Of a stretch of 64,000 bases of DNA, positions 7,897-56,238 are shown one piece after another. Both the position numbers and the translations under genes were made by a program. Location: assembly GCA_030295235.1 (NCBI GenBank), contig AP026127.1:868001-932000 (forward strand), given 5' to 3'. This DNA is from Fistulifera solaris (taxonomy: Eukaryota). How positions within the stretch are numbered: position 1 is the stretch's first letter; every line of letters starts with the position of its first letter. The notes beneath the pieces are model-generated. The model searched no databases. It was not told the DNA's origin and worked only from the letters and a program-made list of their open reading frames with translations.

Positions 7897-8090
7897 GTGA
7901 AAATACAACGCTCCCACATTTTCTGGACGGGAGAAAGCACACGCCCACATTTTCTGGACACGTCAAAAAGTACCCCCACAATTTCTGGAGACGTGAGAAA
8001 GCACACCCCCACATTTTCTGGACACGTGAAAAAGCACAGGCCCACATTTTTTGGACACGTAAAAAAAGCACTCGCCCACATTTTCTGGAC
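7897..8090 (+). repeat. Tandem array of six 31-34 bp units (CCCACATTTTCTGGACACGTGAAAAAGCACACG-like)
   Basis: Unit starts at about 7913, 7944, 7975, 8008, 8041 and 8075; related to the arrays at 18.5 and 35.9 kb. Confidence 0.92.
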
Positions 8091-18500: not shown

Positions 18501-18735
18501 CGTGTAAATTCCCCTGACCCAGATTTCCTGGGAACGTGAACATACAACCGGTCCAGATTTTCTGGACCTGTGTAAATACCACAGACCCAGATTTCCTGGG
18601 AACGTGAAGATAAAGCAGGTCCAGATTTTCTGGAGCAGAGTAAGTACCACACGCCCAGATTTCTTGGGAACGTGAAAATACAACTGGTCCAGATTTTCTG
18701 GACCAGGCAAATACCACACCCCAAAGATTTCCTGG
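18501..18735 (+). repeat. 68-bp higher-order tandem array of alternating palindromes
   Basis: CCCAGATTTC(C/T)TGGG at 18518, 18586 and 18654 (period 68) alternates with GGTCCAGATTTTCTGGA(C/G)C; linkers are 17 bp. Confidence 0.93.
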
Positions 18736-22571: not shown

Positions 22572-23805
22572 TGACGGTGATGCTATGCAATATTATCATC
22601 ATTCAAAATAACGCAATGTATCGTTTCTTGGATACGAAAAGCTTTCGCATCGATGATGGGCAAATTCACTATAGGATCAAAGTGATGGTTTACCCTATCC
22701 TTGACTGAACTTGAGTCACGATCGAAATACGAAAATAAATACGGAGTAATGAAACGGCAACAATGAAGTCCACAAATGCTAGCATTAAGTGTATGATCAA
22801 TTGTATTGGTATTGACGGTGATGTTACAAAATATAATCATCATTCAAAACGTAATGTATCGTTTCTTGGATCCGAAAAGCTTTCGCATCGATTACCGGCA
22901 AATTCACTACAAGTATAGGATCAAAGTGATGGTTTACGCTATCCTTGACTGAACTTGAGTCACGATCGAAATACGAAAATAGATGAAACGGCAACAATGA
23001 ACTCCACAAATGCTAGCATTAAATGAATGATCAATTGTATTGGTATTGACGGTGATGTTACGAAATATCATCATCATCATTCAAAACGCAATGTATCGTT
23101 CCTTGGATCCGAAAAGCTTTCGCATCGATTACCGGCAAATTCACTACAAGTATAGGATCAAAGTGATGGTTTACGCTATCCTTGACTGAACTTGAGTCAC
23201 GATCGAAATACGAAAATAAATGAAACGGCAACAATGAACTCCACAAATGCTGTTGAAAATACTACTCGGAGTAACGTACTGTGGAATCGAACCACAGAGC
23301 CAACCCAATCACGTCGTATTTCTACCCCGATCCATGATATATAAGCCACTCTGATTGACGTCCAGACCCTCAATCTGACATCCTCCCTGGCCTTATACTA
23401 CTATCATGATCGTACTGTTTTTGCCCTTCAGCCTCCTCACTTGAGACCGCTTCAAGCCCTATTCTTTTATCCTCCCGGCTTCACAGGAGTCGGCAACAAA
23501 CTCACTCCGCCAGGGTTCGAACCCTGTGCGTTACCATGTTGAAAATACTAACGTACTGTGGAATCGAACCACAGAGCCAACCCAATCACGTCGTATTTCT
23601 ACCCCGATCCATGATATATAAGCCACTCTGATTGACGTCCAGACCCTCAATCTGACAAAATGCTAGCATTAATTAAGTGTATGATCAATTGTATTGGTAT
23701 TGACGGTGATGTTACGAAATATCATCATTATCATTCAAAACGTAATGTATCGTTTCTTGGATTCGAAAAGCTTTCGCATCGATGATGGGCAAATTCACTA
23801 CAGGA
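22572..23805. repeat. ~235-241 bp tandem satellite (about 3.5 units), interrupted by a TRIM
   Basis: TGACGGTGATG unit starts at 22572, 22813, 23047 and 23701; units are highly similar and AT-rich. Confidence 0.95.
23251..23657 (-). mobile_element. TRIM-type non-autonomous LTR retrotransposon (407 bp)
   Basis: Direct repeats 23251-23380 and 23537-23657 with TGT...ACA ends, identical except a 9-bp insertion. Target duplication AAATGC (23245-23250 / 23658-23663). On the minus strand a PBS-like TGGTAACGCAC follows the 5' LTR and a purine-rich GGCCAGGGAGGA precedes the 3' LTR. Confidence 0.92.
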
Positions 23806-24019
23806 CAAAAGTGTGTTTCGGTGCTGCTAAACCCAGAACGAAATTTCTCCTAAAAAACTAAGCGGCGAATTAAAGATGAAAAAGGTTAAAAACTTAGTAG
23901 ACTGAAGAGTATTAGGAATTGAAAAGACCAATGTCAGCAAAATCCTACTACCAAACCAGCCAGAAAAAAGAAAATGTATGCGTGCGTGAGAATAGCATCA
24001 GAACTCTTGTCACCAAATC

Positions 24020-24926
24020 TTAATCATTCCAGCACTTTCCCGTGGGATAGATGACATTGAGACTGGATTGAGCGGCCATGAAGCCAAGAGATGTGGAAGT
24101 ACCGGCAATCGCACACCCAACGAGATCGGGTGTTCCGTCTTGAATGCCGACGACATCCAACAAGAAATTCTGTTCCGGTAGGTAAGCTGCGTCCGTTCCG
24201 ACAAAGAAACCTGTAGCTCCTCCAATGGCGACCGACAGACTGGCATCATTCTTGCTGTTCGCATACGTGGGCTCTTCAATGCCCTCCAACGCCCCCGAAA
24301 GGAGCGTTCGGGCGACACGCAATCCACCGTAGAATGCTACACCACAGCCAATCCAGGTCCCCAAGAAGACTTGTTGAAAAGGCAAGTTGGCTCCTTGCAA
24401 CGCATTGACAATGGGTTGCCATGCCGTCCCCGGAACAAAAGGCCGCCGAACCGAGCAAGATTCCCGTATGCAGTTCGTTGGTGAGATTCAAGCCCGAATC
24501 TTTCGTCAGAGCTTTTTTGGCCGAATAGTACGTCATATGACCCAAGCAGACACCGACGGCATCGCCCAGACCCGTCGATAGGGCGAAATTCAACGAATCT
24601 CCCGCAAATCCTTGTTGCGCCGCAACGATGCTCGCCGTTTGCCAGCCAAAGCCGGCGGGAAAGATTTTACTGACGGTTACTTCGGCCGTGACAATGAAGC
24701 GATCGACGAGGGAACTTCGAGTGACCGTTACGGGAGCAGCGGAAGAATCAATGACTTGCGATGCTTTCGGAACACTGCTGTGGACTTGGCGGCGGGAGAG
24801 TTTGTTCGCCTTACTATCGGCTTCCTCCTTTTTCGAAGGACGAATCGCACACGACGAAACGGGACGAATCGCCAGGAAGCGAGGAGGCACTGTCAAAGTG
24901 CGACGTGTAATCGATGAGACGAGCAT
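24020..24926 (-). CDS. Hypothetical multi-pass membrane protein with mitochondrial-type presequence; frameshift near 24430
   Basis: Arg/Ser-rich N-terminus MLVSSITRRT...; Gly/Ala-rich helices (SKIFPAGFGWQ, GGATGFFVGTD); two overlapping ORFs. Confidence 0.7.
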
Positions 24927-26483: not shown

Positions 26484-29400
26484 TTACAACTTTTCTTTCG
26501 AAGCCCCACGTGTCAAGCGACTGGAAGCTCGAGCCACAAGATCTTCCTGACTCTTCTCGCTCAAATCGCCGTCCTCGTCATCGATCTGCTTTTCGACTTC
26601 CGCAAGAAAACCCTCATCATCGGACAAGGTGTCGCTGCGGAACATGCGTGAACGTAACGGGACATTGTCGGCATCTTGGATGTCATCCAAGCGTACCTGG
26701 TGATTGGCGTACTCCGCCGTGTACTTTTCAACCAGCTTCTCGACAACTTGGTGACCTTGAGCTTCCCACTCGGCGCGGTTCTTCTGGGCGTAGTTTAAGT
26801 ACTCGTCACTGGAAACACCAAAGACGCCGCATTCCTTCAACTTTTTGGCCAAGGGGATGATGTAGAAATCGAAGAAGCCGATCTCGCCATTGTACCAGAA
26901 CTCGGACGGGTCCTTCTCGGAACGTCCGTTGCGCCACGCATCGTACATTTCATGGAATAGACGTTCGTTCCACTTGCGGTAGATGTGCCAATGCTGCATG
27001 GTATGCGCGATATCGGAAGCTTGAATCAAGTGCTCGATGACGATCGTAGCCTTGCGGTTGTTGTTCTCGCGAGAATCGACCTGATTCTCTTCCGCAAAAG
27101 CTTTCTCCCAGCGTGCATTACGAAGCGCCTTGAGCTCCTTATCGACAATGTCGGTTGCCATAACGGAATTGACCACGAGCTCACGGAAGTGACGCATCTC
27201 TTCATCGGTCTCGCAAATCAAGTGACGGAGGTCTGTGTAATTCTTGTGCATCAGCAAGTCCCATGCAATGTCGACAGAGTTCTGCTCCGCAACCGACTTT
27301 CCGTCATATATTTTGGCGACTTCCGCGCCCTCCTTGACCAGTTGAGCATTGGGAACACCCGAATGGTCCGTATCGTGGATAAGCGCGGCAAATACACAAG
27401 CAAACTGGGTCAATGGGTCCGACGTAATGCCATAAGTGTGATCGTGAAGAGTAGCCGCATGGTCATGGTTGTTCGCGTTCTTCGAGTTCACATCAGGAGC
27501 GATGATTCGGCTGAGGAGTTTCACCACAGACATGGTAACGTGCGATGCATGCTCAAAGTTGTGGAATGGGTTGTCGCGATAGAAAGTTGCAACCAGCATC
27601 ACGTAGTCACGGAGTTGCTTCTGTGCCGCTTCTCCGAGATCGATACTTTGAGGATCCTCCTGGTACTGGGCAGCCAGCGGGTCGTATTCCGGGAGTTCGA
27701 TGATCTCTTTGACTTCGTCAATTACAGTGCCACCAGACTTTATTTCGAGTTTAGCTGGCGTACTACTCGACACTGTTCCTTTCAGCCTCTTGGTGGCATT
27801 GCGATGCGCAACAATCTGGCGAAGGAGACGAGCAAGCACGTCCGAGTTCCAGTCCACCAAGCGTCGCAGCTTGTCCTCGTCCATATCAGCTTTACTTTTG
27901 GCCTTCTCTTCTTTCTTGGCCGCCTTCTCTTGCTCCATTCTCTTGGCTTCTGTCGGACTGATGCTTTCTTCGGTTTGGCCATCCGATGCACTTGAACCAG
28001 TGGGGGCGATGGACGGAGCCTTAACTTCGAGCCAGTATGTTTGCATATCCCCCTTGACTTTTGTCCTGATAACATCTTCTCTTTTCTTGAGCCAGTGTCC
28101 CTTCCCAGCAGCTTCAAGAAGACTGGCGGTTTCGGTAGAAAGGTGAATGCGATTTCTTGAGCCAGAACTTTCGATCTTCGATGCTGTATTGACCGTGTCA
28201 CCGAACAGCTGGAACCGAGACTTGTCACCACGCAATACACCCGCGGTAACAGGTCCACTATGCAGTCCGATCCGCATAGAAAGATCACCTGTATCAGGTC
28301 CAAGTGTCAGCTCGAGTTTCTTGGTTAGATCATTCATCCTGTGGAGACAGTCACGAGCAAAGCGAGCCATGACCACAGCATGGTCCTTACGAGCCTCGGG
28401 AAGGCCAGCAACTGCGACGTAACAATCACCAACTGTTTCGACCTTGAAGACCCGTCGGCTGCGCGCAATCTCGTCGAATGCATGGTACACAGTCTCAAGG
28501 AGTGAGAAGACTTGCGTTGGTTCTCGCACACTGGACCATGCAGTGAAGCCTGTAAAAATGAAATGTCAAAAATGAGTCGATTGCTAGGTTTGCGGATATT
28601 CTGGTCCAAATTGCAGCAGTGTACGCACCAACGATATCTGCAAACTGCGCACGCGAGAAATCAGTAATGGTTATTCAAGGGTGAGTCGACTGTGTTGTAA
28701 GTTGATGAGTCTGCTTCGAAGGTTATACAAGCAACGTACCATGACTGTCGCGTCGGGGAAGAGATCGGCAATGGGCTTGCTGTCGAACGCAGAGTTTCCG
28801 TTTTCGAGGACGTTGTCATCTTGAACAAAATCTTTGAGCTGGGCCTTAGCGCCAAATCCGAAACCCCTCTTGTGTTGTCTATCACCTTCATCTTGCTCTT
28901 CGGCGTCCTTCAAGATCCTGTCACGGACATTCGCCGGAAAGAGGGCTGTGACAATTTTATTTGTGCGGCGAGCAGCTTCCATTACCTTTCGTTGACGGAG
29001 AAGCACGAAGTAGTCATACAGAAGAAAGACTAGAGCCGTGAAAACGAAAACAGACACAACGACGACTGTGTAAACGACGGGTTTGTTTGAGTGATATTCC
29101 TCCTCGAAGATCGAAGTTGGGTATACATGAATCATGTAGTTGCAGCTTTCTTCAGTATGCGCCGATATTGAATGATCACCAAATTCAACCGCAAAGCCCA
29201 TGTAATCATAGTCGGGGTCATGGTGGTCTCCGTACCCAACAAAAGTAGCGACTGGTCCGTTGATACTGTAAGTGAAATGCTGATTACATGTGTTCTCCAT
29301 CACAATGTCGATGCCATTCACTCCCTCCGGAATCATGTCCAAGAGGAGCTGATCAAATGGTAAGACAGTGATTAGGGAAGCAACAATGTCCTCCGACTTG

Positions 29401-35891: not shown

Positions 35892-36269
35892 CAAACCACA
35901 CCCCCAGATTCCCTGGGAACTTGAAAATACAACGTGTAAACCCATCCCCCAGATTTTCTGGCAACGTGAAATTGCGACAGGTCCAGAATTTCTGGACCAA
36001 CAGTAATACCACCTCACCAGATTTCCTGGGAACGTGAGAATACAACTGGTCCAGATTTTCTGGACCAGTGTAAATACCACATCCCCAGATTTCCTGGGAA
36101 CGTTTTTAAAAAAAAATAGAACTGGTCCACATTTTCTGGACCAATGCAAATACCACAACCGCCCAGATTTCCTGGGAACGTGAAAATACAGCAGGTCCAG
36201 ATTTTCTGGACCACGTGTAAACCCATTCGCCCAGATTTCCTGGGAACGTGAAGATACGCAACTGGTCCA
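35892..36269 (+). repeat. 68-bp hairpin array (about 5.5 units), same family as 18501-18735
   Basis: CCCAGATTTCCTGGGAACGTGAAAATACA alternates with GGTCCAGATTTTCTGGACC..TAAATACCAC. Confidence 0.93.
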
Positions 36270-50609: not shown

Positions 50610-52341
50610 TTATTCCTTCTTGGGAGAGTTCTCCTTTTGAGTCGTGACAGCAGGTGCCGCTGCTGCTGGTGGCGCCTTTGGGGCAACACTTGTTGACACA
50701 GACGAGGTCTCCTTTGTAGTACCTGGTTTTGCTTTCTTTTTGGGTTTAGTGTTTATGGTGGAAGCAACATCACCTGATGATGGAGCCGCGTTAGGAAGAG
50801 CAGGCGGTGCATCTTCTGACTTTCGTTTGCGTTTCGCAGCAGGTTTCTTTGTCTTGGCGTCGATACTCGATGTTGCCGTCGATGCTGTTGGTGCGCCCGT
50901 AGACGCTGCTGTCGTACTGGAGGAGGATGCTGTCGCAGCCGGCTTTTGGCCGCCGGCTTGGATCCGGTAGCAGTTTTGCTGACTGGTGCTTTCGCTTTGC
51001 CCGGTGCTGCCGCGGCCGCAGTAGCAGCTGGAGCCGCCGGTGCTTTCGTCACTGGCTTGGGTCGTGGTGCCGGAGGAGGGGCAATACCCAACAGAGTCTC
51101 TTCGTCCACCACGCGAATATTACCGCCCATTTTGGCCAGTTTGAGTCGCCGAGCACGCAGCACACCTTCTCTTTGGATCACTTGTTTCTCCAATAACAGC
51201 CACGTCAGTGCGTCTCGACGGACCGTATCCATCAAATCACACGCCCGTTTCGTTGCAATCACAGTAGATGGCACATTCATTTCCGCCAAGAGAGCCTCCA
51301 TACGAGCCACCAGCGCTTTGGAAATGCCTGTTTCACCACCAGTAGCGGGTAATACCAGTCGAGCTGATTGCAAATAAGGAACACCGGGCACTGGTGTCGG
51401 AGCCGTGGTCGCCATAGCTTGATCCACCTGTTGCACGGCCACTTCGGGAGCCGGAATAGGCGTTGCTGCCCGTGAAGCTGCCGTCCCATTCGCTGCCACG
51501 ACATGCGCGCCACGCTTCTTTAGTTTGCGCAATTGTGTCTCTACCTGCTTAAGTTCATTCCGTAACGCCAATTCTTCCGCTTCTTCTTCCTTGGTTCGAT
51601 TCCACAATGCCTCCCAATGCGCGCGTCGTTCTTTTCGTACGCCAAATCAAAGACTTTATTACTCGTTCCGGTCCCTAAATGCTGCATGAGCGGCTGGTGT
51701 TGCGGATCCGAAGACGCCAAAGAACGAGCCGCCGCTGTTTCCAGCAATAATTTCGGATCTTCGGCATTACTATCGGCTGCAACGGCTTCCAAGGCTTTCG
51801 TTTCCAGCGCCGCTTCGTGCGACACGCGGCGCTGTAACAATTTTGCCGCAACGGTATAAAAGCGATGTTGCAAGTCTTCGACGGGCCGCGGAGGACACAC
51901 GGCACACCAACGATCATGAATGACGGGCCATCGCAATTCAAATATGCGAGCGTATTCCATCAAAGTGTCAGTTTCACTTTGCGACCAGTCTTCTGATGTC
52001 AACCACGCTTTGTATTCCTCTATTGTGTATTGTACTGGATCTAAATGAATATCAAAACGAGCGTATGGATAATCCGGGTATTCGACATTCGCCCGGACCC
52101 AGTGGTTCAAAAGAAGCCCGTCCGGGCGACTCGACGATGAAAACGGCGCCCAGGTCCATTTTCGCGCCGGCTTGTGTGGATTGATTTGTCTATTACCTAT
52201 TCTAACAAATGTTGGGACTGTTGTTGGGAGTTCGGTGGCAGATCCGGTGAGATCCGAGTGAGGCTTGGGTAGAAGAGGTTTGTTGTTGCCGATTGGTTGC
52301 GGGGCACTTTTCACGCCCAATATTTCCGCTATGTCGGTCAT
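50610..52341 (-). CDS. SWC4: SWR1/NuA4 subunit SWC4/EAF2 (DMAP1-like); frameshifts near 51632 and 50945
   Basis: RKWTWAPFSSSSRPDGLLLNHWVR, YPYARF, SANT-like WSQSETDTLM..FELRWPVIHDRW..RPVEDLQHRFY, FDLAYEK; Ala/Lys/Pro-rich tail. Confidence 0.88.
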
Positions 52342-53691: not shown

Positions 53692-54176
53692 GTTTGTGAA
53701 TAAATCAGTGATGATTCAATGTTTGCCGTATTTCATTACACTTCGTCATGTTTGATGATTGATGATGATTTTGCAAGGCAACGTTTGTTTTTGCGTTGAC
53801 GCTTCAGCATCGTCGGCCGAAGTTTTGCAAACGTGGAAGATTCCGGATTCCGTTTCGGTTTCATTGACAATCCGACCACGTAAGTCTACTTCGCATTGTA
53901 TAGTCACACACGTTTTCACACTTTTCGTATGCCCTTCGGACTTCGGAAGCGGGATTTCCTACTTTATACGGTACACATTCAGATGATCTAATCCGTGTTC
54001 TACGTGGCTTAGCCACGGTGGCTTGTGGCGGAGAACATTCGCTACAAAATAATTGCGCAGAGCTCGCACCTTCGCAAAAGAGGCACAATTGCTGTTTTGG
54101 TTTTTTAGCTCGTCCCCATTGTAGTTCTTGCAAACTCCATGTTAATACCTTTCCGAGTATTTCGACTTGCAGCACA

Positions 54177-56238
54177 ATGAACTCGTTTCTCTATTGCAGC
54201 CGATTTAAACTGCTTTGGCTGATGATGGCTATTGCAATCACGCGGAGCTATGGTCAACAAACGGCGGACTCGAATGTCTCTGCATCAACACAACAATCAT
54301 CGAAACCCCTCAAGTTCGGTATGATCAGTGGAGGATCCTCTTTCTTTATACCCATTGGAGAGGGATGGTTGGCTGCTTGCGAGAAATTGGGGGTCGAATG
54401 CTACTATGAGGCTCACAACGCTACATTGTGGCCGGAACAGGAAGGCGAATGTGATTTCCGTAGCTATCTAGCCGACCAATGGATTGCCGAAAAGTTTGAC
54501 GGTATCGCCTTTAAAGGATGCGGAAATTGGACAATCATGACCGATGTCGTGAACAAAATCATTGATAACGGGATTCCCGTTGTTACATTTGATCATGACG
54601 TCGAAAACACTACCCGCACGGCTTACATCGGCACCGATCAAGTATTTATGGGACAAACGCAAGCGCGCTTGTTGCGTCAACTGCGTCCCGATGGAGGCAA
54701 GTACGTTGTTATCTGCCGCAAAGATGGTCGTTACGAAGGATTCATACAAGAGATATCTCGGTACAATAACAACAAAGACAAGGCAAGCTGGTACCAAGCG
54801 TTCGAATTTGACCGGGACGATCAGAACTATACGCTCGAGTACGAGATAGGCCTCGAATATGGAGCGGATGTCTTCATCTTTCAGTGCCAAACCCCCATGA
54901 AAGACGAAAATTGGACTTACTTTGCTGCCGACATGCGTGCCAGAAATGTCACTTTAATCGGAGTAGATGGAAGTGATTGGCAAATTGATTACTTGAACAA
55001 GCGAAGCGTTGACGGTTTGATCGGTCAACTTCCGTTTGAAATTGGATCGAAATCTATTCAAGTACTCTATGATACTGTTATGCAACGAAAAGCGCAACAA
55101 GAAATCCTGTCTACAAATCTTGTTTCCTACAATCTCATTCCAGCGGACTTGCCCCCGTTGAATGTCGACAACAATTTGATTGGAAATCTCGTCTACATTG
55201 GTTACACATGCTTTGCTTTGATTGCCTTCTCGGTCTTTGTGTGCGTAGCATGGACAATCCAACACCGCAAAGATCTCGTCGTCCGAGCGGCTCAGCCTTT
55301 TTTTCTCTTCATGGTGGCTGGAGGTGTGCTCATCTTGGCTAGCGCCTTGATCCCTTTGACATTCGACGATAATGGCGAAGCGGACTCATTAACTTCAAGA
55401 CAAGCAGCCACCATTTGTATGAGTGTACCGTGGCTGGTTTTTACCGGTTTCACGGTTGCCTTTTCGGCGCTCTTTTCCAAGACGTGGCGGATCAACCGCC
55501 TATTTTTCTCCAAAGTACGAATGGCACGCATGCAAGTTACGGAAAAGGATGTTCTTGCGCCATTTGTGGTGTTGCTCTCCAGTAACATGATTGTCCTTGT
55601 CTGCTGGACGGCCATTGATCCTCTTACTTATACACGACACGAAAACGAAGGGCTGGACTACTGGAATCGTGTCATCTCTACGTATGGCGTGTGCAAGTCC
55701 GACACTGCCTTGGCCTTCTTGTCTCCACTGGCAGCGATAAATCTTGGAGTCGTGGCGATTGCTTGCTGGCAAGCTTATCAAGCCCGAGCCATCAAGTCAG
55801 AGTTCGCCGAGGCCAAGTATATTGCTCTTGCGGTATTTTCTCTCTTTCAAGCTTTCTTTACTGGTGTTCCTGTTTTGATTGTTGTAAGGAACATGCCGGA
55901 AGCTTATTACATTCTCCCTGACCATGATGGTTTTCATTCTTTGCATGGCTATATTGCTCTTGATCTTTCTGCCTAAAATCTTTATCCAAAGAAAGTACGC
56001 AGGCTTAAGCGAGGAAGAGCAGAGAAAGATGTTGCACGATACCATTCGAAAACACGGTAGTTCTGACTTTGGCTATCAGCCCCAGCGGGGCCATGCGCAG
56101 CAATCGAGCTCCGTCCGAAGCCCCCAACCCTCCGACGAAACCAAAGAGACGATCGCGGGTGAAACAGGGTCGGATCGATATGATGAGAAGGACAAGTTCG
56201 TTCATAACTCTCCCATCAAACGCCGCAACTCGTTGTAA
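54177..56238 (+). CDS. Class C (GABA-B-like 7TM) GPCR with an N-terminal periplasmic sugar-binding-protein-like domain; frameshift near 55916
   Basis: Signal peptide; FDGIAF, GIPVVTFDHD, YIGTDQVFMG, LIGVDG, GLIGQLPFEIG (RbsB/LacI-type fold); then VVRAAQPFFL, SALFSKTWRINRLF, SEFAEAKYI, LLIFLPK. Confidence 0.88.

What the first reader, a model, noticed from the sequence alone, without database searches (positions are those of the whole stretch)
23279..23574. tRNA T-arm/B-box-like hairpins inside the TRIM LTRs and at its primer site
Seen: each LTR contains, on the element strand, CTGTGG-TTCGATT-CCACAG (23279-23297, 23556-23574), a 6-bp stem with a 7-nt loop matching the Pol III B-box GGTTCGANTCC. 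The PBS region on + reads CAGGGTTCGAACCCTGTGCGTTACCA (23511-23536), like a tRNA 3' end with T-loop and CCA, longer than a usual PBS and containing a perfect 16-bp palindrome. Established: plant Cassandra TRIMs carry 5S-derived Pol III promoters in their LTRs. Inference: this may be a tRNA-derived analogue using Pol III/TFIIIC or tRNA mimicry for transcription or priming. No convincing A-box was found, and a TATA-like TTATATAT is also present.
Basis: partly seen in the sequence, partly recalled or inferred. Interest (0 to 1): 0.7.

Follow-up and report, generated by a model that had tools for sequence, protein, structure and literature searches.

The report
Tiny retrotransposon with tRNA-like LTR end
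A 407-base miniature LTR retrotransposon carries at the end of each terminal repeat a look-alike of the last third of a tRNA gene that matches the tRNA it appears to use as primer, which fits a device for starting reverse transcription better than a Pol III promoter.

Summary
They sit in a 407-bp minus-strand TRIM, 23251-23657, with LTRs of 121 and 130 nt, TG..CA ends, the TSD AAATGC, a PBS starting TGG and a purine tract. It is inserted in a 237-bp satellite and is multicopy in public runs.

On the element strand the LTR ends with:
- a canonical T arm, the only such hairpin in 64 kb (0.13 expected);
- then GTACGTTA in the exact register of acceptor 3' strand plus discriminator;
- then GTATTTT.

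Those 8 nt match 7 of 8 the tRNA end implied by the PBS, and the match stops at CCA. So U5 holds a gene-type sense copy of the 3' end of the putative primer tRNA.

Nothing more is tRNA-like. ARAGORN (default) and Rfam find no tRNA, and the low-threshold cloverleaf and the A box are at chance level. The PBS palindrome is 2 nt out of tRNA register.

The LTR end and the PBS with its palindrome fold into one long hairpin (z -3.6). It is tighter with the majority PBS variant.

Best reading: a tRNA-mimicking cis-element for priming. Pol III use is unsupported but not excluded. Host tRNAs, other copies and RNA data could not be obtained.

The parts
23251..23657 (-). Whole TRIM-like element, 407 bp, with no ORF over 36 aa
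   Evidence: single copy in the window
23537..23657 (-). 5' LTR, 121 nt, TGTCAG...TTCAACA
   Evidence: (D4, D7); identical to the 3' LTR except for a 9-nt indel (93% over 130 columns)
23251..23380 (-). 3' LTR, 130 nt, with 9 extra nt at about 23265-23273. They lie directly after the acceptor-like GTACGTTA on the element strand
23245..23250 (.). Target-site duplication AAATGC, left copy. The right copy is 23658-23663. Uninterrupted satellite units carry it once
   Evidence: D6
23658..23663 (.). Target-site duplication AAATGC, right copy
23556..23574 (-). T-arm-like hairpin in the 5' LTR (LTR positions 84-102): CTGTGG TTCGATT CCACAG. It contains GGTTCGATTCC, a full match to the B-box consensus
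23279..23297 (-). The same T-arm-like hairpin in the 3' LTR
23549..23556 (-). GTACGTTA (LTR positions 102-109), in the register of tRNA positions 66-73. It matches 7 of 8 the PBS-implied GTGCGTTA. The same 8 nt lie at 23272-23279 in the 3' LTR
23542..23545 (-). TTTT run, which starts 4 nt after the discriminator-like A (GTATTTTCAACA ends the LTR). In the 3' LTR it is 23256-23259
23526..23536 (-). PBS core TGGTAACGCAC, directly after the 5' LTR. Every laid contig that covers the site has 23527 C and 23528 A instead
23511..23526 (.). Perfect 16-nt palindrome CAGGGTTCGAACCCTG abutting the PBS core. It is T-arm-like but has a 6-nt loop. It is a candidate partner of the LTR hairpin and a candidate dimerisation palindrome
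23500..23580 (-). U5-PBS-leader hairpin of 81 nt, -30.3 kcal/mol, z -3.56
23381..23394 (-). Purine-rich tract AAGGCCAGGGAGGA (12 of 14 purines) directly before the 3' LTR
23613..23620 (-). TATA-like TTATATAT (LTR positions 38-45)
   Evidence: LTR printed

Best explanation
This is a young, multicopy, non-coding miniature LTR retrotransposon (TRIM) on the minus strand. The last 38 nt of its LTR (U5 end) are a sense, gene-type look-alike of the 3' third of a tRNA: T arm, acceptor 3' strand, discriminator A, short trailer and TTTT, with no CCA. That tRNA is the same as, or very close to, the one whose CCA end is complementary to the PBS. In the RNA, this tRNA-like piece and the PBS with its adjoining palindrome form an inverted repeat. 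They fold into one hairpin of about 75 nt that holds the PBS.

I propose that this module works in cis at the start of reverse transcription.
- It masks and presents the PBS.
- Because it duplicates the primer's 3' strands, it could pair with the primer's freed 5' acceptor and T-stem strands once the tRNA 3' end has annealed to the PBS. This would act like U5-IR/U5-leader stems, the primer activation signal and the tRNA-like element of retroviruses.
- The self-complementary TTCGAA palindrome next to the PBS may also serve RNA dimerisation or packaging.
- Genomic RNA is most likely made by Pol II from the TATA-like box.

Shown: the anatomy, the in-register match, the fold and the multicopy status. 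Inferred: the tRNA origin, every functional step and the polymerase.
For: TRIM anatomy.
- LTRs of 121 and 130 nt are identical apart from one 9-nt indel. They have TG..CA ends and a 6-bp TSD. TGG follows the 5' LTR directly, and a tract with 12 of 14 purines precedes the 3' LTR.
- No ORF exceeds 36 aa.
- Mobility: summed contig depth over the LTR is 383-2245, over the internal part 81-162, and over unique flank about 21-95. Several different flanks abut 23657/23658 and 23542 in runs X1 and X2.

tRNA-like end.
- The only canonical T-arm hairpins in 64 kb are the two LTR copies, against 0.13 expected. The B-box match is complete, against 0.11 expected.
- The next 8 nt, GTACGTTA, equal 7 of 8 the PBS-implied GTGCGTTA in the exact register of tRNA positions 66-73. 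The window-wide frequency of such a match is 30 of 127,986 positions.
- The match stops where CCA begins, as expected for a gene copy set against a mature tRNA.
- TTTT starts 4 nt after the discriminator-like A.

Fold.
- The 81 nt fold into a single hairpin of -30.3 kcal/mol, z -3.56, with 1 of 200 shuffles as good.
- With the variant 23527C/23528A, carried by every laid contig covering the site (3, 2, 1 and 1 in X1-X4), the energy is -35.0 and the central helix becomes continuous.

Precedent: PAS pairing with the T-psi-C arm of the primer tRNA, and a tRNA-mimicking element in the HIV-1 PBS segment (PMC11181671, passages read).
Against: - No host tRNA set was available, so the primer tRNA is only inferred from the PBS. 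Whether any host tRNA ends like the LTR piece is unknown.
- Rfam finds only the 17-nt T arm, as weak pieces of tmRNA models (13.5 and 7.7 bits, E 0.16 and 0.87). No tRNA-clan match reaches significance.
- The family is so uniform in the reads that covariation could not be tested. High-depth LTR contigs show 0-1 differences.
- A second full B-box match lies by chance in an ORF at 51593, and 16-nt palindromes are at chance frequency.
- Both known PBS variants differ from the LTR 8-mer at one position.
- The predicted hairpin destroys the individual T-arm fold. Folds with the T arm enforced are 5.6 kcal/mol (window copy) and 9.2 kcal/mol (majority variant) worse. So a tRNA-shaped RNA is not the favoured state.
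- No transcript data exist, so R/U5 limits and the polymerase are unknown.
Confidence: 0.48

Rival explanations
1. Pol III/TFIIIC module. The LTR B box recruits TFIIIC. Either a short LTR-internal Pol III transcript is made, ending at the TTTT as in Cassandra's 5S domain, or the site acts as a TFIIIC-bound chromatin or targeting element.
For: - The B-box match is complete, inside a canonical T-arm hairpin.
- A T4 run lies 12 nt downstream of the hairpin, and an A-box-like AATCAGAGTGG (2 mismatches) starts 63 nt upstream of the B-box start.
- Cassandra LTRs also hold a Pol III promoter plus a terminator (PMC12486564, passages read).
Against: - A-box-like sites with up to 2 mismatches occur at chance rate: 226 against 204 expected.
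- There is no cloverleaf beyond what the T arm alone gives: 1302 of 2000 shuffles. ARAGORN at default finds 0.
- A Pol III transcript that stopped at the T4 would lack PBS and PPT, so it could not be the retrotransposition template.
- A TATA-like box lies upstream.
- No RNA or TFIIIC data exist.
Confidence: 0.12
2. Ordinary U5-PBS-leader inverted repeat whose tRNA look is coincidental. GGTTCGA/TCGAACC is self-complementary, so two arms selected only to pair with each other can look like T arms.
For: - The minimum-energy fold pairs the two motifs with each other rather than forming T arms.
- Rfam gives no significant tRNA match.
- The palindrome has a non-tRNA 6-nt loop.
- A chance B box occurs at 51593, and palindromes are at chance rate.
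Against: - The LTR arm has exact tRNA geometry: a 5-bp stem closed by G-C and the 7-nt loop TTCGATT. The 8-nt match to the PBS complement then follows in exact register and ends at CCA, and TTTT follows.
- In-register chance is about 2e-4 per position, on top of 0.13 per window for the hairpin.
Confidence: 0.25
3. Self-supplied primer. The U5 copy of the acceptor strand, already paired to the PBS and stacked on the T-arm hairpin, is cut by RNase H as in Tf1, or by a tRNA 3'-processing enzyme after the discriminator-like A. It then primes minus-strand synthesis without a host tRNA.
For: - An 8-bp U5-PBS helix sits directly beside the T-arm hairpin. It is continuous in the majority variant.
- The only LTR-LTR difference, a 9-nt insertion, lies exactly after that A.
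- Self-priming is predicted for 12% of plant LTR elements (PMC6317226, passages read).
Against: - The PBS starts with TGG directly after the LTR, the hallmark of a CCA-ended tRNA primer. The U5 copy lacks CCA.
- The strong-stop product would be only about 15 nt.
- Nothing was tested.
Confidence: 0.05
4. Not a retroelement: a 277-bp unit duplicated 1.5 times in tandem.
For: The repeat spacing is 277 bp. One contig per run reads internal-LTR-internal.
Against: - TG..CA ends, a 6-bp duplication of satellite sequence, TGG after one repeat and a purine tract before the other.
- Many different flanks abut the repeat ends in the reads.
- The internal-LTR-internal contig can arise from collapse of the two LTRs in the assembly graph.
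Confidence: 0.02

Closest known systems
TRIM (terminal-repeat retrotransposon in miniature)
   Same: Total size under 1 kb, terminal direct repeats of 100-250 bp, a PBS after the 5' repeat, a PPT before the 3' repeat, a TSD and no coding capacity. The definition is as given in PMC6934838 (passages read).
   Different: I found no TRIM description with a T arm plus acceptor-strand copy of a tRNA in U5. The host here is an unnamed gene-dense eukaryote.
Cassandra TRIMs (5S-derived domain in the LTR)
   Same: A TRIM whose LTR carries a piece of a Pol III gene with a terminator (PMC12486564).
   Different: Cassandra has a whole 5S-like domain with A box, IE and C box. Here only about 25-38 nt of a tRNA 3' part are present, with a B box, no credible A box and no 5S match in Rfam.
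Retroviral primer-handling elements: HIV-1 PAS and tRNA-like element; U5-IR and U5-leader stems and the U5-T-psi-C contact of avian retroviruses (the avian items are recalled, not read here)
   Same: Sequences in U5 or the PBS segment that pair with, or mimic, parts of the primer tRNA and enclose the PBS in a stem (PMC11181671).
   Different: PAS is an 8-nt motif, and the tRNA-like element mimics the anticodon arm. Here the mimic is the T arm plus acceptor 3' strand, in a non-coding miniature element. Function is untested.
Tf1-type self-priming elements
   Same: LTR-derived RNA complementary to the PBS, folded back on it (PMC6317226 and PMC6934838).
   Different: Tf1 uses the first 11 nt of the transcript and has no tRNA-type PBS (recalled). 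Here the PBS begins TGG, and the complement lies 15 nt upstream of it.
Retrozymes (TRIM-like elements with hammerhead ribozymes in the LTRs; recalled)
   Same: A small structured RNA motif repeated in both LTRs of a tiny non-autonomous LTR element.
   Different: No hammerhead match at E up to 10.

Membership tests
TRIM | Two terminal direct repeats of about 100-250 bp; element under 1 kb | tested here: met
   LTRs of 121 and 130 nt, 407 bp in total
TRIM | PBS complementary to a tRNA 3' end directly after the 5' LTR | tested here: inconclusive
   TGGTAACGCAC starts right after the LTR. No host tRNA set was available to match it
TRIM | Polypurine tract before the 3' LTR; TG..CA ends; target-site duplication | tested here: met
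   AAGGCCAGGGAGGA (12 of 14 purines); TGTCAG..TTCAACA; AAATGC on both sides
TRIM | No coding capacity; dispersed copies | tested here: met
   ORFs of 36 aa or less. Several distinct flanks and raised depth in runs X1 and X2. The tool warns that depth is not a copy number
Cassandra | 5S rRNA-derived domain in the LTR | tested here: not met
   No 5S match at the gathering threshold or at E up to 10
Retrozyme | Hammerhead ribozyme in each LTR | tested here: not met
   No hammerhead match at E up to 10
tRNA gene or tRNA-derived SINE head | Full cloverleaf with A and B boxes | tested here: not met
   ARAGORN at default finds 0. The -ps85 'tRNA-His' call is reproduced by 1302 of 2000 shuffled upstream sequences. 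Rfam matches only the T arm
Pol III type 2 promoter | B box | tested here: met
   GGTTCGATTCC, a full match to the consensus
Pol III type 2 promoter | A box 30-60 nt upstream of the B box | tested here: inconclusive
   AATCAGAGTGG has 2 mismatches and starts 63 nt before the B-box start. Such sites occur at chance rate, 226 against 204 expected
Pol III type 2 promoter | Pol III transcription and TFIIIC occupancy | not testable with these tools
   No RNA holder was listed
Tf1-type self-priming element | PBS complementary to the 5' end of the element's own transcript | not testable with these tools
   An 8-nt complement lies in U5, but the transcript start is unknown

The most novel reading that the evidence does not exclude
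The LTR carries a functional tRNA minihelix module: T arm, acceptor strand, discriminator and oligo-U. The cell's tRNA machinery would read it. One route is TFIIIC/Pol III making a small LTR RNA. Another is a tRNA end-processing enzyme or RNase H cutting after the discriminator-like A while that strand is paired to the PBS. The element would then supply or shape its own primer instead of borrowing a host tRNA. This would be a tRNA-based counterpart of Cassandra's 5S module combined with Tf1-like self-priming.
Probability: 0.1. Interest if true: 0.8.

Novelty: new variant of a known kind. Interest (0 to 1): 0.45.

Why it matters
How miniature LTR elements with no genes get primed, packaged and transcribed is poorly known. 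The only well-described LTR-borne Pol III-gene module is Cassandra's 5S domain. If real, a U5 segment that copies the 3' third of the primer tRNA, in register and without CCA, would be a compact natural case of tRNA mimicry at a retrotransposon PBS, outside retroviruses. It would also give a simple system, 407 bp in all, for testing how U5-PBS structure and primer-tRNA unfolding control initiation. If instead it is a TFIIIC/Pol III site, it would be a second, independent capture of a Pol III promoter by a TRIM.

Tried and rejected
- Whole-genome search: no genome is held for this window, so the host tRNA set and other copies could not be searched.
- Earlier notes of this scan: nothing by place, sequence or words.
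- Public runs: 7 runs in 3 studies. No RNA holder was listed.
- Reads laid on 23381-24280: all are contigs, so no transcript starts, ends or strand could be read.
- The joint '23657 goes back to 23381', one contig in each of the 4 runs, is no evidence for circles or tandem arrays. It can come from collapse of the two LTRs in the assembly graph, and I had left the other LTR out of the laid stretch.
- Metagenome contig scan with a 20-mer from the LTR: 4 loci. All are bare 20-23-nt chance matches by blastn. That spent the cap.
- Genome contigs and viral-contig scans with the LTR-end-plus-PBS 20-mer: 0 and 0.
- ARAGORN 'tRNA-His' in both LTRs at -ps85 was rejected by the shuffle control.
- The 'tRNA-SeC' cloverleaf across U5-PBS-leader is the only ARAGORN hit in the window at -ps90. 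It is just the four-way alternative of the long hairpin. In the majority variant the fold with the T arm enforced is that four-way form, at -25.8 against -35.0, so about 9 kcal/mol worse.
- A tRNA-like reading of the plus strand near the PBS gave no hit.
- Protein atlas look-up for host taxonomy was uninformative.
- Paper searches for the PBS or hairpin letters gave nothing relevant.
- One search failed on a term that was too short and on a strand argument. Both were redone.

Full report
**What is there**

The two hairpins and the 'primer site' belong to one 407-bp element at 23251-23657 that reads on the minus strand.
- The 5' LTR is 23657..23537 (121 nt) and the 3' LTR is 23380..23251 (130 nt).
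- The LTRs are identical over 109 + 14 nt and differ only by 9 extra nt at about 23265-23273.
- They begin TGTCAG and end TTCAACA.
- The satellite hexamer AAATGC is duplicated on both sides (23245-23250 and 23658-23663). Uninterrupted satellite units carry it once.
- TGGTAACGCAC follows the 5' LTR directly.
- AAGGCCAGGGAGGA (12 of 14 purines) precedes the 3' LTR.
- No ORF exceeds 36 aa.
- The element sits in a 237-bp satellite (22572-23251, resuming after the element to about 23800) between two genes of a gene-dense eukaryote.

This is a TRIM by anatomy.

**Is it mobile and multicopy?**

Only one copy lies in the window, and no genome is held. Seven public runs from 3 studies hold parts of the surrounding 4.5 kb. 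I laid four of them on 23381-24280. The records laid were 57 for X1, 77 for X2, 3 for X3 and 6 for X4, and all are contigs.

| Region | X1 summed depth | X2 summed depth |
|---|---|---|
| LTR bins (23531-23650) | 466-1274 | 383-2245 |
| Internal bins (23381-23530) | 81-162 | 105-139 |
| Unique flank (23951-24280) | 32-95 | 21-22 |

- The tool warns that these sums are not copy numbers, so I take them only as 'repeated'.
- Loose ends with low agreement (0.52-0.63) abut 23657/23658 (2 + 2 records in X1, 3 + 2 in X2) and 23542 (4 in X2). So the LTR has several different neighbours.
- High-depth LTR contigs differ from the window at 0-1 positions. The family is therefore uniform, and stem covariation cannot be tested.
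- Every laid contig that covers the PBS (3, 2, 1 and 1 in X1-X4) has 23527 C and 23528 A where the window has T and G.

**Check of the observation**

Coordinates and letters are right.
- The B-box consensus occurs 3 times in the window against 0.11 expected. Two are the LTR copies, and one lies inside an ORF at 51593 by chance.
- I defined a canonical T arm as 5 Watson-Crick pairs closed by G53-C61 with loop TTCRANN. By that definition the two LTR copies are the only ones in 128 kb of both strands, against 0.13 expected from 300 first-order Markov shuffles.
- The 16-nt palindrome is real. But such palindromes occur 2 times against 1.29 expected. Only its place beside the PBS is notable.

**How tRNA-like is it?**

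ARAGORN at default finds no tRNA in the window, and Rfam finds nothing at gathering scores.
- At E up to 10, only the 17-nt T arm is picked up, as pieces of tmRNA models (13.5 and 7.7 bits, E 0.16 and 0.87).
- Nothing of the tRNA clan matches the PBS palindrome.
- At 85% of its threshold ARAGORN draws a 'tRNA-His' in each LTR. With the T arm kept and the 83 nt upstream shuffled, 1302 of 2000 sequences still get such a call. The cloverleaf is therefore worthless as evidence.
- A-box-like sites with up to 2 mismatches number 226 against 204 expected. The AATCAGAGTGG that starts 63 nt before the B box is not beyond chance.

So the LTR holds a T arm, not a tRNA.

- On the element strand the T arm (LTR positions 85-101) is followed at once by GTACGTTA (102-109) and then GTATTTTCAACA.
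- In a tRNA, the 8 nt after the T stem are the acceptor 3' strand plus the discriminator. In a tRNA gene a short trailer and an oligo-T terminator follow.
- The PBS implies a primer ending GTGCGTTA-CCA. With the two changes seen in the other copies, it reads GCACGTTA-CCA.
- The LTR 8-mer matches the window's PBS-implied 8-mer at 7 of 8, in exactly that register.
- Across the window, 7-of-8 matches to that 8-mer occur at 30 of 127,986 positions. In the LTR this is the only one.
- The likeness ends where CCA begins. This is expected if the LTR piece copies a tRNA gene while the PBS complements the mature tRNA.

By contrast, counting back from CCA, the PBS-side palindrome is 2 nt short of canonical tRNA geometry. 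It has a 6-nt loop and 12 instead of 13 nt between loop and CCA. The PBS proper is therefore about 11-15 nt, not 26.

**Fold**

- The 81 nt from 23580 to 23500 (minus strand) fold into one imperfect hairpin of -30.3 kcal/mol, z -3.56, with 1 of 200 shuffles as good.
- The LTR T-arm region pairs with the palindrome (GGTTCGA with TCGAACC). GTACGTTA pairs with the PBS core. The loop is the U run.
- The same hairpin appears in the fold of the 277-nt LTR plus internal region.
- With the majority variant the central helix is continuous and the energy is -35.0.
- Folds with the T arm enforced are -24.7 (window copy) and -25.8 (majority variant). That is 5.6 and 9.2 kcal/mol worse than the respective hairpins.

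**Reading**

The best-supported account is a cis-acting priming module. U5 carries a sense copy of the 3' end of the tRNA that primes the element.
- It encloses the PBS in a stem.
- Because it duplicates the primer's 3' strands, it could hold the primer's released 5' strands after annealing.
- Retroviruses use comparable devices: PAS pairing with the T-psi-C arm of the primer, and a tRNA-mimicking element in the PBS segment (PMC11181671, passages read).
- The self-complementary TTCGAA palindrome beside the PBS also has the look of a dimerisation site. This is inference only.

The Pol III reading keeps only the perfect B box and the analogy with Cassandra, whose LTRs also hold a promoter and a terminator (PMC12486564, passages read). 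A Pol III transcript that stopped at the T4 would lack the PBS.

A pure-chance reading is weakened by the register match but not excluded. A self-priming variant is the boldest reading left open. Self-priming is predicted for 12% of plant LTR elements (PMC6317226), and odd hairpins replace a canonical PBS in bivalve TRIMs (PMC6934838).

**Limits**

- I could not obtain host tRNAs, further copies, related families or any RNA data.
- The metagenome scan returned only chance 20-mers.
- The genome and viral scans returned nothing.
- I found no paper describing a tRNA T-arm or acceptor copy in a TRIM LTR. Only listings and the passages named above were read.
- The function, the polymerase and the tRNA origin are inferences.

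Noticed in passing
window 23265-23273: The only difference between the two LTRs is a 9-nt insertion in the 3' LTR. On the element strand it lies exactly after the discriminator-like A of GTACGTTA, at the acceptor/trailer junction. The inserted stretch with its flank is nearly palindromic (TACTC C GAGTA).
   Followed up: partly
window 23527-23528, 23439, 23461, 23396: Most public contigs laid over the internal region differ from the window copy. At 23527 T>C, 23528 G>A and 23461 A>G, every contig in all four runs differs. At 23439 A>G the X2 and X3 contigs and part of X1 differ, and X4 does not. A 3-nt deletion at 23396 is in X1, X2 and X4 and in half of the X3 depth. The LTRs match the majority. 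TG and CA at 23527-23528 could both derive from CG by deamination.
   Followed up: partly
window 22572-23250 and 23658-23800: A 237-bp satellite of about 3-4 units at 90% identity lies between two genes and is the insertion target of the TRIM. Its units are also at raised depth in the public runs.
   Followed up: no
window 7913-8090, 18502-18735, 35947-36269: Three intergenic arrays of 33/34/68-bp units share a motif like CCAGATTTCCTGGGAACGTGAAAATAC, with short palindromes (TTCCTGGGAA, TCCAGATTTTCTGGA). This may be a dispersed minisatellite or an array of factor-binding sites upstream of genes.
   Followed up: no
window 26484-28565 (-): One open frame joins a guanylate/adenylate cyclase catalytic domain (E 7.7e-41) to a 3'5'-cyclic nucleotide phosphodiesterase domain (E 1.8e-30). 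This is a cyclase-PDE fusion.
   Followed up: no
window 53904-55976 (+): An ORF combines a periplasmic-binding-protein domain with a class C (7tm_3) GPCR domain.
   Followed up: no
window 51593-51603 (+): A third full match to the B-box consensus lies inside a long ORF region, with no hairpin or tRNA context. It serves as a reminder of the chance rate.
   Followed up: yes
window 23922-24280: Runs X1 and X2 each hold two contig versions of the unique flank. In X1, one matches the window exactly and the other differs by 18-20 letters in about 180-200 nt. In X2, both differ from the window, by 22 and 33 letters in about 360 nt. This suggests divergent alleles or strains.
   Followed up: no
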